Shown: piece after piece, positions 44,401 to 47,400 of the stretch
How the letters are laid out: every line of letters starts with the position of its first letter
How positions within the stretch are numbered: the first letter of the stretch is position 1
Source: Escherichia coli
GTDB lineage: Bacteria > Pseudomonadota > Gammaproteobacteria > Enterobacterales > Enterobacteriaceae
Assembly: GCF_024700885.2 (NCBI RefSeq)
Contig: NZ_CP117016.1
Direction: 5' to 3' (one strand)
Length of the DNA: 64,000 nt
Made by a program: the position numbers

Positions 44401-47400
44401 CGCAGGATGCGCTGCGGATAATGGCGGTTCTCCCGCCAGCTGGCCGCATTGCGTCCGGCATTCACCGTGGCGACATGTCCGAACCAGCGGGTGCTGTCCA
44501 GACCTTTCTGTGATGCAAGCCGCCTGTCCCGTTGTACCCAGCCCAGACCACCGTTATAGCCCGACAGTGTCATGGCCATACGCTCGCAGTCACTGGCGGC
44601 GCTGACACGCTGCCACAGCCAGCGGTCATAGCTGACCAGCGCCCGGATAGCCCATGCCGGATTAAACGGCTCACGACTGCTCAGCATCGGTATCAACTGG
44701 CTTATCCAGTCGGCAGTGGCAGGCATGAACTGCGCCAGTCCCTGAGCGCCAGCCGGCGAGATCGCATCAGGTCGCCAGCCGCTTTCCTGATGCAGTTGCG
44801 CGGCGAAATCGGCCACCGGCGCAGACAGTCCCCATTCAAGCCGGGCATTACGGATCACATCATCGCGATACTGCAGCGCAGCCTGCGGAGGTTGTGCTGC
44901 GCATGCCTGGCTGAAAAAGCCGCCACACCAGAGCAACATTGCGACAAAGAATACCCATGCCATATGAACCAGAAAGGTCCCGGCGCGGACTGACAGGCGT
45001 TCGGTTCTGATGAAGACCCGAAAGGCTTCGAAAGCCAGTTTCAGGGACATGCATACAATCCAGGTGATCTGCGGCCAGTTCATGATTAAAGCCCCATCGC
45101 AACAGCCAGGCAGACCGCTGCAACAATCAGTGCACGGCGGATTAACGCAGCAGAAAACACCAGGTGAAGGCCGGTCTGTACCGGGAAACGCCCTTCAGCC
45201 ATCAGCCTGTCGTCATGTTTCAGGTACTGACCGGGACGGGCTTTGGGGAAGAGCGAACGGTCAAGCCAGTAACCCAGCACTGCTGCCAGCGTGATGAGTG
45301 CCAGCTTGTAGATCACAACAGGCAGCTGCTGTGGTGAGACCAGAGCGATGGTGCCCAGCAACAGCACTGAGGTCAGCAGCCAGCCGCTGAGGCGAGGTTT
45401 TTTAACAAGGGGAATGAATTTTTTCAGTTTTTTCATGTGTGTCTCCTTATCTGGTGGAGACAGCATCACAAATACAGGGCGCGAAGGATTTTAAAGCGCG
45501 TTAAGAGAGCCGGGGATACGGGATGTGCAGGATAAACGATGAATTATTCACAGAGGAGAATACGATATGACGCAGACACTGAATCCGGTCATCACTGTCA
45601 CCGTGTCCGGTCCTGTGGGCAGCGGTAAAAGTTACGTACTGGCGCGAATAGAGGAAGTGGTGAAACAGGAATTCGGAAACAGCGTCATTGTCGACGCCGC
45701 AGACGTGGACGGTGAGCGCCGTATGAGTGGGGATGATCTGAGCACATGGCAGAAACCACGGGCTGGCACAGTGATCAGGCTGGAGGAATACACGGGACAG
45801 GGCCTGTTGTCATACGGCGAGGAGCGTATCTGTCGGACGAATGAGCTGCTGGATGTTATATGCCCCACGGGCCGGCAACCCTGGATACTGCCCGATGCAC
45901 TGCATGCCACCATTGCGGCACTGATGACAGTTTACGATCAGGAGCTGCTCATGAAGGAGTTACGTAAACTCACTGGTCAGTCAACAGAATGTTGTTCGTC
46001 CCCGAAGTACGGCAAACAGGAACACATCCCGATTAACCAGCCTCCCCGGTTCTTCGACGAATACCTTCTGACACCGGAAAATAAAGCTGAGCATGAAGAG
46101 ATCAAAGCGGCGTTGTTCCGGGAAATCAGGAAGATTGCTGAAATGCAACTGGAGGGCGGGCTGGACAGAGTGATGGCGAGAGGAGAATGGGCATCGCTGT
46201 TTGAAAGAGTTTCCCCGGAATTACTTCCCCTCGCACTGGCTATCGGGATTATGCAGACAGCGGATAAACCTCACTTACGTTCATTAAACACGTAACGCAT
46301 AATCCGGGATACGCATTCAGCGATGACTGCATTTTCACCGGTTTTTACTGCATCCAGAAGTGACTCTTTAAATGGTACGGGCCGGGGCTGCAGAAAGGTC
46401 GGCATGGCATTGAGCAGACAGAGCGTTTTTTCCGTGAGGACGACATCAGCCGCTCCCACAGCCAGCAACTGAGAGTAACGAATATAGCTGTTATCCCGAA
46501 GCCATATCAGCGTATCAATAAAACACCGGCACTTTTTCTGGTCGTGATCAACCTGGTCCGGGATATCGAAAAAACCAGAATAAATCAAAACCTGAGGTGC
46601 CGGATGCGTGTTCAGTAATCGGCAGAATATTTTGCCGGTGAGTACATAAAAATCATCATTTAAGGAGTGCATCATGAATCCCCGATTAACGTTAACAGAA
46701 CATCAGCGCCGTGCTGAAGCAGTGAACAATGTTCTGGAAGATATTATCCGGTTATACCGCGGAGAACTGAGTGTCTGTCGTGCCGCTTTTCATTTTCAGG
46801 GAATACAAAAGCAGTTTGATACTTCTGTTTTTGCAGAAGGTATTACTTATGCCCTGGACCGGATAAGGTCAGAAAATCGCCCCGGATAATCCCTAAACCA
46901 CATTAACAGAAATCCCGCCATCCCTGCCGCATCATGAAAGAACGACCAGCCCGGCACCCGAAAGCCGGGCTGGTCATCGCCCCACAGGAATGCGCTGTGA
47001 GCCGACCAAGGTTCAGTCAGTCTCGCGAGACCTGACCAGACTGCCATATTTTTTAATAATTGTAAAAGGCTTGCAGATTATGAAAATGCAGACATTACCC
47101 ATCGTGCCGTGGATTGGTGGCAAACGCCGCCTTGCAAAACACATTCTGCCGCTGTTTCCGGCGCATGAATGTTATGTGGAGCCGTTTTGTGGGGCAGCAG
47201 CGCTCTATTTTCTTAAGACACCCGGCAAGATCGAAGTCATCAATGATATCAACGGTGAACTGGTGAATCTGTACCGGGTGGTAAAGCATCACCTGGAAGA
47301 ATTTGTCCGCCAGTTCAAATGGGCGCTGGTCAGCCGTCAGATCTACAAATGGCTGCAGATCACCCCGGAAGAAACACTGACGGATATCCAGCGTGCGGCA

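What the first reader, a model, noticed from the sequence alone, without database searches (positions are those of the whole stretch)
45567..46889. Accessory gene block in the prophage core: P-loop kinase-like protein with a convergent overlapping partner ORF
Between the late-operon start and the repressor lies a mixed-orientation block that is not part of either operon. The 242-aa protein has an N-terminal Walker A (GPVGSGKS) and a small-kinase-like start. Its 3' end overlaps by 25 bp a convergent 134-aa ORF. A 71-aa ORF with a strong RBS starts head-to-head with that ORF. None matches a phage core function I recognise. Location and architecture fit a moron-type cargo module such as superinfection exclusion, toxin/antitoxin or anti-defence, and this is the best candidate here for an uncharacterised system.
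Basis: inference. Interest (0 to 1): 0.75.

Follow-up and report, generated by a model that had tools for sequence, protein, structure and literature searches.

The report
Composite accessory gene block in a prophage
The three ORFs are real, selected genes of unknown function in a variable slot of a common E. coli Mu-type prophage; the conserved unit is an antisense-nested winged-helix gene with small helical partners that also occurs in P2-like phages, not a kinase-based system.

Summary
A is 45567-46295 (+, 242 aa, Walker A GPVGSGKS), B is 46271-46675 (-, 134 aa) and C is 46674-46889 (+, 71 aa). The A/B 3' overlap is 25 bp, and the B and C start codons overlap by 2 nt.

The window carries a Bcepmuvirus-like transposable prophage (phage PhiKM, Phi2 of ST131 strain EC958), present in about 11% of complete E. 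coli genomes. The holin-to-repressor slot varies among relatives.

The block is composite:
- **A** is a mosaic. Its N-terminal ~75 aa are a phage-restricted mini P-loop domain (strand, Walker A, helix; no Walker B), found alone or fused to many different tails. It matches no kinase or ATPase family.
- **B** has a winged-helix fold. B and C form a back-to-back pair in every locus recovered, including P2-like phages, where the pair sits in the gpA-gpQ defence hotspot.
- **X**, A's C-terminal ~55-aa module, accompanies B-C in four BcepMu-like lineages and is missing wherever B-C is missing.

No defence, toxin-antitoxin, Pfam, NCBIfam or PDB family matches any of the three.

My best model (confidence 0.35) is that B, nested antisense in the A-to-C-to-Dam unit, is expressed alternately with that strand, with C and X as its partners. 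The function is untested.

The parts
45567..46295 (+). Gene A, 242 aa (WP_000194951; phrog_3787). A mosaic accessory protein made of an N-terminal mini P-loop domain, a middle module and a C-terminal X module.
   Evidence: ORF. PHROG match. Purifying selection in all three parts. Mosaic architecture.
45567..45794 (+). N-terminal mini P-loop domain of A (residues 1-76), with Walker A GPVGSGKS at 45609-45632. Conserved positions are G15, G18, G20, K21, S22, I28, E50 (usually followed by R/K), W61 and P64.
   Evidence: An exhaustive HMMER search found 60 representative clusters. Apart from close relatives and two repeat-protein matches judged spurious, the matches cover only residues ~1-76; members are standalone 78-90 aa proteins or fusions up to 364 aa. 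AF2 pLDDT is 86-91 for this part. Only profile positions 10-47 match P-loop NTPases.
45879..45974 (+). Middle module of A (about residues 105-136, 'W.LPDA.HA.IAAL..LYD.EL...ELRK'). It is found at the C-terminus of other family members and is deleted in the 182-aa variants.
46095..46256 (+). X module: the C-terminal helical module of A (residues ~177-230, 'D(W/R)V..R..W..L'). It is a separate 89-aa gene in Serratia. It is always encoded convergently with B in BcepMu-like prophages.
   Evidence: phmmer E = 1.2e-10 to the Serratia 89-aa protein. phrog_3787 positions 176-230 match. Co-occurrence with B-C.
46271..46675 (-). Gene B, 134 aa (WP_000972294; phrog_2266). A winged-helix fold protein with two C-terminal helices, nested antisense between A and C.
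46674..46889 (+). Gene C, 71 aa (WP_001069611; phrog_4490). A small predicted helical protein placed back-to-back with B, with SD AAGGAG at 46662-46667 inside B's first codons.
46944..46975 (.). Perfect 12-bp stem hairpin (GACCAGCCCGGC, 8 nt, GCCGGGCTGGTC) between C and Dam. It is a possible terminator or RNA-stabilising element.
   Evidence: I4. There is no T-run on the + strand and only a partial one on the - strand. Function not tested.
47080..47844 (+). Orphan Dam-family adenine methyltransferase (WP_000783854 = M.EcoMIV of EC958 Phi2), co-directional with A and C.
   Evidence: Low transcription in the EC958 lysogen is reported in PMC4659465.
47961..48317 (-). 118-aa HTH repressor-like gene that bounds the slot, followed by a terminator-like hairpin at 47875-47851.
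45086..45436 (-). Holin (phrog_1528), the first gene of the lysis/late operon, divergent from A. It bounds the slot on the other side.

Best explanation
The block is a composite accessory region, not a kinase-centred three-gene machine.

Shown:
- Its conserved core is gene B, an often acidic winged-helix protein, placed back-to-back with a small helical gene C. Their start codons abut or overlap (CATG).
- In BcepMu-like prophages this pair always comes with a third, ~55-aa helical module X encoded convergently with B. In this window X is fused to the end of A.
- The P-loop part of A is a separable ~75-aa phage mini-domain that keeps only strand 1, Walker A and helix 1.

Inferred mechanism:
- B is nested antisense inside a co-directional unit. 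Here that unit is A, then antisense B, then C, then Dam. In most P2-like loci it is gene A, then cargo, then antisense B, then C.
- Promoters for B and C must therefore fire through each other, so the two strands cannot both be fully expressed.
- I propose that B is made from its own promoter in the lysogen while the A-C-Dam strand is largely silent.
- On lytic development, transcription of that strand would silence B by interference and by RNA duplex formation over both ribosome-binding sites. It would also produce C and X, which would be B's binding partners or antagonists.
- B would act in the lysogen as a regulator or exclusion factor.

B's target (DNA, a host protein or a protein of an incoming phage) is unknown. 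The mini P-loop domain probably binds a phosphate-bearing ligand (nucleotide or nucleic acid) rather than acting as an ATPase or kinase.
For: Geometry:
- Back-to-back start codons are found in essentially all of the ~50 viral loci scanned, and in phages FSL SP-004, Midge and ST147-VIM1phi7.1.
- The same geometry recurs in two further BcepMu-like lineages whose B homologues score hhalign probability 99.0% and 98.4%.

Linkage of X to B-C:
- X is present in 4 of 4 BcepMu-like lineages that have B-C.
- B-C is absent in 3 of 3 lineages whose A-like gene lacks X.

Protein features:
- B has a winged-helix fold.
- The P-loop domain is separable, occurs in other phage-like contigs, and lacks Walker B.

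Strand logic:
- C is co-directional with the flanking genes and B is antisense in both phage families.
- In several P2-like loci recognised defence genes lie directly downstream of B on B's strand (PDC-M48B/LmuA-like, Orf5/HEC-06; also a Fic protein).
- The Dam gene of the identical prophage (EC958 Phi2) is transcribed at a much lower level than host dam in the lysogen (PMC4659465).

All three genes are under purifying selection.
Against: - There are no transcript data for A, B or C. The promoter scan in the block is at chance level (5 found against 4.0 expected) and shows no convincing promoter for B or C.
- Low Dam transcription says nothing direct about A or C, and a hairpin separates C from Dam.
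- In many P2-like loci the gene convergent with B is a retron RT, which is itself expected to be expressed in lysogens. Opposite-strand genes are therefore not all lytic-phase genes.
- The P2-type C is not detectably homologous to the BcepMu-type C, so the role of C as partner rests on position alone.
- The hinted X-to-C relationship is not significant (hhalign P = 0.0023, probability 12.6%).
- The acidic pI of B in 4 of 5 lineages argues against a classical DNA-binding repressor.
Confidence: 0.35

Rival explanations
1. B and C are simply a compact transcriptional switch, with a winged-helix repressor/activator and a small Cro/Cox-like partner transcribed from face-to-face promoters. The switch would set expression of neighbouring accessory genes (A and Dam here, defence cargo in P2-like hotspots). 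It would have no effector function of its own.
For: - B has a winged-helix fold, and its closest structural neighbours include many MarR/Rrf2/PadR/IclR regulators.
- The divergent back-to-back geometry forces face-to-face promoters, as in the P2 C/Cox and 186 CI/Apl switches (own knowledge).
- The small partner is replaceable while B is conserved, as with Cro-like proteins.
- Nucleotide conservation peaks over the start-codon junction and the first ~45 nt of B in 37 P2-type sequences.
- The phage Midge annotators called the homologue a putative transcriptional regulator.
Against: - B is acidic in 4 of 5 lineages (pI 4.6-5.4, net charge about -7), and the conserved residues of its 'recognition' helix are mostly hydrophobic.
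- No Pfam HTH family matches any member.
- No operator-like repeats stand out above chance in the block.
- The flanking cargo is highly variable, so a sequence-specific regulator would have no constant target except its own junction.
Confidence: 0.2
2. The block is a counter-defence or host-takeover set that benefits the phage during lytic growth. A (via its mini P-loop domain and exchangeable tail modules) and the small acidic proteins B, C and X would bind and neutralise host or rival-phage factors. Dam would protect phage DNA.
For: - The mini P-loop domain occurs in unrelated phage-like contigs among runs of small hypothetical genes. One such gene sits next to a gene with a faint Acb2/Tad1-hairpin hit.
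- A constant N-domain with shuffled C-terminal modules at a fixed locus suggests arms-race diversification.
- A and B are acidic.
- An orphan Dam is co-oriented with A and C.
- The Dam strand is nearly silent in the lysogen.
Against: - B-C was found only in temperate phages: 11 of 50,697 phage records, all P2-like or PhiKM.
- B is antisense to the strand carrying A, C and Dam, so the set cannot be one co-expressed unit.
- There is no homology to any known anti-defence protein. The Acb2/Tad1 hit is faint and lies in a neighbouring gene, not in the family itself.
Confidence: 0.2
3. This is the first reader's version: a toxin/antitoxin or abortive-infection module in which the P-loop protein A is a kinase/NTPase toxin or sensor and B and/or C are its antidotes.
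For: - A has a conserved Walker A, and weak sub-threshold P-loop hits include Zeta_toxin, KAP and AbiEii-type AAA_21.
- The genes overlap tightly.
- The slot is variable.
Against: - The P-loop domain is only ~75 aa, has no conserved Walker B, and matches NTPases only over strand 1, the P-loop and helix 1.
- A variants with large internal deletions or truncations are common and retained.
- The P-loop domain and B-C are separable in both directions.
- There are no significant PADLOC hits for A, B or C.
- The gene orientation is not that of a TA operon.
Confidence: 0.1
4. The ORFs are decaying or non-functional remnants with no current role.
For: - C is weakly constrained (pN/pS 0.36-0.6), and frameshifted C variants exist in assemblies.
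- Truncated and internally deleted forms of A are frequent.
Against: - A evolves at pN/pS 0.2-0.3 throughout.
- B is conserved at 30-53% identity across genera and across two phage families, with its geometry intact.
- The full block is retained in about 475 of 5426 complete E. coli genomes.
Confidence: 0.03

Closest known systems
Accessory cassettes of the P2-like gpA-gpQ (old/tin) hotspot (Rousset et al. 2022, PMC9122126)
   Same: Homologues of B (30-33% identity, phrog_2266) with a back-to-back small gene sit in that hotspot. They are flanked by retron RT, PDC-M48B/LmuA-like, Orf5/HEC-06, AriA-like and NsnA-like genes. The E. coli proteins WP_000042038 and WP_000551925 appear in that paper's locus table as 'hypothetical'.
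   Different: The pair was not singled out or tested there. In this window it sits in a different phage family (Bcepmuvirus-like), with an extra X module and a different small partner, and without recognised defence neighbours.
Face-to-face promoter switches of temperate phages (P2 C/Cox, 186 CI/Apl) and 'excludon' loci with antisense overlap of divergent genes
   Same: B and C are divergent genes whose transcripts must overlap at their 5' ends. A small second gene is paired with a helix-turn-helix-type fold protein, and mutually exclusive expression is the expected outcome (geometry shown; expression inferred).
   Different: There is no homology to C, Cox, CI or Apl. Here the start codons themselves overlap, so each promoter must lie inside the other gene. 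B is also overlapped at its 3' end by a convergent gene. No promoters or transcripts have been demonstrated.
P-loop NTPases / small nucleotide kinases (and PGAP's label 'ABC transporter ATPase' on truncated A variants)
   Same: A has strand 1, Walker A GxxGxGK[ST] and helix 1. Profile matches over positions 10-47 include ABC NBDs, adenylate/cytidylate kinases, UreG and PilT.
   Different: The conserved domain ends after ~75 residues. It has no conserved Walker B acid, no ABC signature motif, and no lid or NMP-binding region. Foldseek finds no NTPase. It is not a member of any of these families.
Engineered minimal 'phosphate-loop' proteins (PDB 6c2u; designed PL2x4_2, 9jix)
   Same: They are of comparable small size and built around a single strand, P-loop and helix element. 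They are among the better sequence matches to the N-domain profile (E = 2.7e-4 and 1.3e-3).
   Different: Those are laboratory constructs, while this is a natural phage family with additional conserved positions (E50, W61, P64). Ligand binding has not been tested here.
Winged-helix families (MarR/PadR/Rrf2; kleisin and Z-alpha winged-helix domains; Pfam DUF2513, the UniRef label on the Serratia homologue)
   Different: No sequence-family membership was found: no Pfam hit, including DUF2513, for any of 18 members, and no PDB sequence hit. B is acidic and has a distinctive two-helix C-terminal extension.

Membership tests
P-loop NTPase / small kinase (protein A) | Walker A motif GxxxxGK[ST] following a hydrophobic strand | tested here: met
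   GPVGSGKS occupies residues 15-22. G15, G20 and K21 are (near-)invariant across the family.
P-loop NTPase / small kinase (protein A) | Walker B: a conserved acidic residue at the end of a hydrophobic strand | tested here: not met
   The position after strand 2 (D43 in A) varies across D/E/S/C/V/K/G among members. The only other conserved acid is E50, which lies in a loop/helix context.
P-loop NTPase / small kinase (protein A) | Complete alpha/beta core (five or more strands) recognisable by fold or profile over its whole length | tested here: not met
   The conserved domain is ~75 aa, and standalone members are 78-90 aa. Profile matches stop at position ~47. Foldseek against PDB and AFDB50 finds no NTPase.
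ABC transporter ATPase (PGAP name on truncated A variants) | ABC signature (LSGGQ) plus the Q-loop, Walker B and H-loop | tested here: not met
   There is no LSGGQ-like motif in A (sequence). The ABC_tran Pfam hit is sub-threshold and covers only model positions 7-51. NCBIfam hits are far below their cut-offs.
Known anti-phage defence systems (PADLOC-DB 2.0) | Significant match of at least one component to a defence-system HMM | tested here: not met
   A gives only weak P-loop matches (E >= 0.003). B and C give none.
Type II toxin-antitoxin module | Two co-directional, co-transcribed genes, with the toxin and/or antitoxin belonging to known superfamilies | tested here: not met
   A/B are convergent and B/C divergent. 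There are no Pfam, NCBIfam or PADLOC toxin or antitoxin families.
Winged-helix DNA-binding transcription regulator (protein B) | Winged-helix fold | tested here: met
   [not shown]
Winged-helix DNA-binding transcription regulator (protein B) | Sequence membership in a regulator family, and DNA binding | tested here: inconclusive
   No Pfam or PDB sequence match was found. The acidic pI in 4 of 5 lineages argues against DNA binding. DNA binding itself cannot be tested with these tools.
Pfam DUF2513 (UniRef label of the Serratia homologue P0031) | Match to PF10711 | tested here: not met
   There is no PF10711 hit at E <= 0.1 for any of 18 B-family members, P0031 included.
Face-to-face promoter switch / excludon | Divergent genes whose transcripts overlap antisense at their 5' ends | tested here: inconclusive
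   Start codons overlap by 2 nt or are 1 nt apart in all loci, so the transcripts must overlap. Promoters were not identified above chance, and no transcript data were available.
Prophage accessory ('moron') hotspot cargo | Located in a slot whose content varies among otherwise syntenic relatives | tested here: met
   Of 635 E. coli genomes that match the slot and its flanks, 495 have this arrangement. Others carry different genes. B-C also lies in the P2 gpA-gpQ hotspot.

The most novel reading that the evidence does not exclude
X-B-C would be a previously unrecognised kind of temperate-phage module. An antisense-nested winged-helix effector would be active in the lysogen, for exclusion or regulation, and would be switched off and neutralised by the phage's own lytic-strand transcription and its small partner proteins. 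The module would be mobile between the accessory hotspots of Mu-type and P2-type phages. Independently, the N-terminal domain of A would be a natural, free-standing minimal P-loop (strand-loop-helix) phosphate- or nucleotide-binding protein family, a living counterpart of the engineered 'P-loop prototype' polypeptides.
Probability: 0.12. Interest if true: 0.8.

Novelty: new variant of a known kind. Interest (0 to 1): 0.5.

Why it matters
- **Prevalence.** The block is carried by roughly one in nine complete E. coli genomes, including the pandemic ST131 reference strain EC958 (prophage Phi2). None of its three genes has a name or a tested function.
- **An experimental target.** B with its small partners is a conserved cassette shared by two unrelated temperate-phage families, and in P2-like phages it sits among proven defence systems. 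It can be studied by deletion, expression and phage challenge in PhiKM or EC958.
- **A simple possible switch.** If the strand-toggle model holds, it would show how a prophage restricts a gene product to lysogeny without a dedicated repressor.
- **Protein evolution.** The ~75-aa Walker-A mini-domain, if it folds and binds nucleotides on its own, bears on how small a functional P-loop protein can be.
- **Annotation.** The label 'ABC transporter ATPase' on truncated A variants is an over-call and should be corrected.

Tried and rejected
Searches that returned nothing useful:
- PADLOC, NCBIfam and Pfam on A, B and C gave nothing significant.
- PDB sequence profiles for B, the P2-type C and the A N-domain gave nothing for B or C, and only generic P-loop segments for A.
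- Foldseek of the A model against PDB and AFDB50 returned only A's own homologues. The model is confident only for residues ~5-75.
- Literature searches for the WP accessions and for DUF2513 found no papers.

Ideas tested and dropped:
- The DUF2513 label on the Serratia B homologue is not reproduced by Pfam.
- Homology between BcepMu-type and P2-type C proteins was not detected.
- Paralogy between the X module and C is only a weak hint (P = 0.0023, probability 12.6%), so I do not claim it.
- A LexA box that might indicate an SOS-controlled antirepressor is absent from the block.
- Operator-like repeats in the block are at chance level. The 10-24 nt direct repeats flanking C are as expected by chance.
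- The 15-nt complementarity between 46323-46337 and the Dam start is not conserved in Serratia and was dropped.
- The promoter scan was uninformative.
- Alternative cargo in the BcepMu-type slot has no clear PADLOC hits; only weak KwaA and 2TM-effector matches appear. The slot cannot be called a proven defence hotspot.
- My first alignment for AF2 of A misplaced the shuffled modules. I rebuilt it with trimmed fragments and one chimeric row.
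Full report
**1. What is in the sequence**

- A runs 45567-46295 on the + strand (242 aa). Its Walker A, GPVGSGKS, is at residues 15-22 (45609-45632).
- B runs 46271-46675 on the - strand (134 aa).
- C runs 46674-46889 on the + strand (71 aa).
- The A and B 3' ends overlap by 25 bp (46271-46295).
- The C ATG (46674-46676) and the first B ATG (complement of 46673-46675) share two bases. C has a strong AAGGAG six bases upstream, inside the first codons of B.
- A second in-frame B ATG three bases further in has better spacing to a GGGGA.

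On one side lie the holin, SLT and the rest of the late operon (- strand). On the other side lie an orphan Dam-family methyltransferase (47080-47844, +), a 118-aa HTH repressor (47961-48317, -) and the early operon (+).

**2. Where the window comes from**

- The region is 99.9% identical to Escherichia phage PhiKM, which is classified in Bcepmuvirus.
- It occurs in 598 of 5426 complete E. coli genomes; 475 of them carry at least 80% of the 1.6-kb query.
- It is prophage Phi2 of the ST131 reference strain EC958, with identical A, B and Dam proteins.
- RefSeq calls all three products hypothetical.

**3. Are they genes?**

- A evolves at pN/pS of 0.2-0.3 in its N-terminal, middle and C-terminal thirds, and its length variants differ by in-frame indels.
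- Dam, as a comparison, is at 0.05-0.08. C is at 0.36-0.6 on few substitutions.
- B has homologues at 53% identity in Serratia and about 30% in P2-like phages.
- C keeps its ORF and detectable similarity in Serratia and two further prophage lineages.

All three are real genes. C is fast-evolving.

**4. The slot is variable**

Among 635 E. coli genomes that match the slot plus its flanks, 495 have this arrangement. The others differ:
- Eco889 has a truncated A (158 aa) followed by 193-aa and 328-aa unknowns and a different repressor.
- HN68 has Dam followed by a 401-aa unknown and a nucleoid-associated-like protein.
- GABEEC10 has a DUF2441 protein and two unknowns.
- BcepMu itself has unrelated unknowns gp18-20.

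These alternatives have no clear defence-HMM hits. The slot is an accessory hotspot, but it is not a proven defence hotspot.

**5. Protein A is a mosaic and not a kinase**

Database searches:
- Word-based search found only E. coli relatives: 247-aa forms, 182-aa forms with an internal deletion, and 141-158-aa truncations labelled 'ABC transporter ATPase'.
- An exhaustive HMMER search of 1.84 billion representatives found 60 clusters. Apart from close relatives and two repeat-protein matches that I judge spurious, they match only residues ~1-76.
- Those proteins are either standalone (78-90 aa) or carry unrelated C-terminal extensions up to 364 aa.

The N-terminal domain:
- The conserved positions are G15, G18, G20, K21, S22, I28, E50 (usually followed by R/K), W61 and P64.
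- The residue that would be a Walker B acid is not conserved.
- Pfam and PDB-sequence profiles match only strand 1, the P-loop and helix 1 (positions ~10-47) of many unrelated NTPases. These include ABC domains, adenylate and cytidylate kinases, UreG, PilT and two engineered minimal P-loop proteins.
- AF2 is confident only for this domain (pLDDT 86-91). Foldseek finds no NTPase fold in PDB or AFDB50.

The other modules:
- The middle module of A (about residues 105-136) recurs at the C-termini of other family members.
- The last module (X, about residues 177-230) is a separate 89-aa gene in Serratia.

More distant members of the N-domain family lie in unrelated phage-like contigs among small hypothetical genes.

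**6. B and C form a conserved cassette shared by two phage families**

- tblastn of B against 50,697 phage records hit only PhiKM and P2-like phages: Salmonella FSL SP-004, Escherichia Midge and Klebsiella ST147-VIM1phi7.1 with its relatives.
- In each, a 63-64-aa gene lies back-to-back with the B homologue, with the start codons overlapping by 2 nt.
- A scan of viral contigs gave 54 loci. In essentially all of the ~50 in which I could reconstruct the genes, the same CATG start-codon overlap is present, or a 1-nt gap in Serratia.
- In the P2-like phages the pair sits between portal gene Q and replication gene A, which is the old/tin hotspot of Rousset et al. 2022 (PMC9122126).
- Variable cargo lies on either side of the pair there. 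PADLOC recognises retron RT type VI, PDC-M48B/LmuA-like, Orf5/HEC-06, AriA/PD-T4-4-like and NsnA/PD-T4-2-like genes.
- The E. coli P2-type proteins are listed as 'hypothetical' in that paper's locus table. The pair occurs in 94 of 5426 E. coli genomes.
- The P2-type small partner (phrog_2454) is not detectably homologous to C (phrog_4490).

**7. The X module travels with B-C in BcepMu-like prophages**

Four lineages have an upstream gene ending in the X module, then a convergent overlapping B homologue, then a back-to-back C-like gene:
- this window;
- Serratia;
- the P0057 type;
- the P0067 type.

Three lineages whose A-like gene lacks X have no B-C. They are the P0051 type, the P0061 type and the truncated Eco889 type, and they run straight into Dam or other cargo.

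The X module is absent from the P2-type loci. A profile comparison hints that X and C could be related (P = 0.0023, probability 12.6%). That is not significant, and I do not rely on it.

**8. Protein B**

- AF2 gives pTM 0.78 with a helix-strand-helix-hairpin core plus two C-terminal helices.
- No Pfam family matches any of 18 members, including DUF2513, the UniRef label on the Serratia homologue. No PDB sequence matches either.
- B is acidic in four of five lineages (pI 4.6-5.4). That fits a protein-binding winged helix at least as well as a DNA-binding repressor.

**9. How it may work**

What is shown is the geometry.
- B is nested antisense within a co-directional unit in both phage families.
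- Here the unit is A, then antisense B, then C, then Dam.
- In most P2-like loci it is gene A, then cargo, then antisense B, then C.
- The promoters for B and C must therefore lie inside or beyond each other's genes and fire through each other.

What I infer:
- The two strands are expressed alternately.
- B is made in the lysogen.
- Lytic-phase transcription of the other strand silences B and produces C and X as its partners or antagonists.

Indirect support:
- The Dam gene of the identical EC958 prophage is transcribed far below host dam in the lysogen (PMC4659465).
- Several P2-like loci have recognised defence genes directly downstream of B on B's strand.

Against the model:
- I had no transcript data.
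- The promoter scan is at chance level.
- Retron RT genes lie on the opposite strand in many P2-like loci.
- I could not model any interaction.

I put this model at 0.35.

**10. Verdict**

The block is accessory and uncharacterised, and it sits in a variable slot. However, it is not a kinase-centred unit, and it is not demonstrably a defence, TA or anti-defence system.
- It is a new variant within a known kind, namely prophage hotspot cargo.
- Two features are worth following up: the antisense-nested X-B-C cassette shared by Mu-type and P2-type phages, and the ~75-aa mini P-loop domain family.

Noticed in passing
L003 2725-5355; L004 3830-6805; L005 2948-6009 (related E. coli prophages): Alternative cargo sets occupy the same holin-to-repressor slot. 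One is a 193-aa plus 328-aa pair downstream of a 153-aa HTH repressor. Another is a 401-aa protein with a weak KwaA hit plus a nucleoid-associated-like 335-aa protein. A third is a DUF2441 protein. All are uncharacterised.
   Followed up: partly
window 46323-46337 and 47081-47095: A 15-nt stretch inside B (on the + strand) is 93% complementary to the Dam start-codon region. In principle this could sequester the Dam ribosome-binding region in a long + strand transcript. It is not conserved in the Serratia prophage, so it is probably chance.
   Followed up: yes
window 46944-46975: A perfect 12-bp GC-rich hairpin lies between C and Dam. It has no T-run on the + strand and a partial one on the - strand. 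Its role (terminator, RNA stabiliser, or a barrier between C and Dam) is unknown.
   Followed up: no
P0014/P0015 (182 aa) and P0011-P0018 (141-158 aa), relatives of A: Common A variants lack residues ~53-123 through an internal deletion that keeps Walker A and the X module, or are truncated after the middle module. PGAP and UniRef name the truncated forms 'ABC transporter ATPase', which the evidence here does not support.
   Followed up: partly
L002 (E. coli IPCEC31, NZ_AP026783.1): In this strain the prophage is heavily degraded: the portal gene is a pseudogene, the transposase is truncated, and it abuts a truncated srlA. The A-B-C-Dam-repressor block is nevertheless intact and 100% identical.
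   Followed up: no
H53 (E. coli ST131 MB1341, NZ_CP174453.1): An IS66-family element (ISEc23) is inserted within the 44343-48600 region of the otherwise identical prophage. The exact insertion point relative to A, B and C was not examined.
   Followed up: no
L075 6659-7681 and L076 2066-3088: In an unrelated ~190-kb phage-like contig, a distant member of the mini P-loop family is followed by a 340-aa gene with a faint Acb2/Tad1-hairpin Pfam hit and by DUF7941 genes. This could be an anti-defence neighbourhood.
   Followed up: no
window 1607, 7292, 35720, 60699: Four exact CTGT-N8-ACAG (LexA-box-like) matches occur in the window, against 0.83 expected. None lies in the block. The AT-rich one at 60699-60714 (CTGTTTTTATATACAG) lies in the host region near the pncC/recA genes.
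   Followed up: no
[not shown]
   Followed up: partly
L085 7379-7597 (EC958): The EC958 copy of C (WP_001069610) is annotated as 72 aa rather than 71 aa, which shows length variation at C's 3' end among otherwise identical prophages.
   Followed up: no
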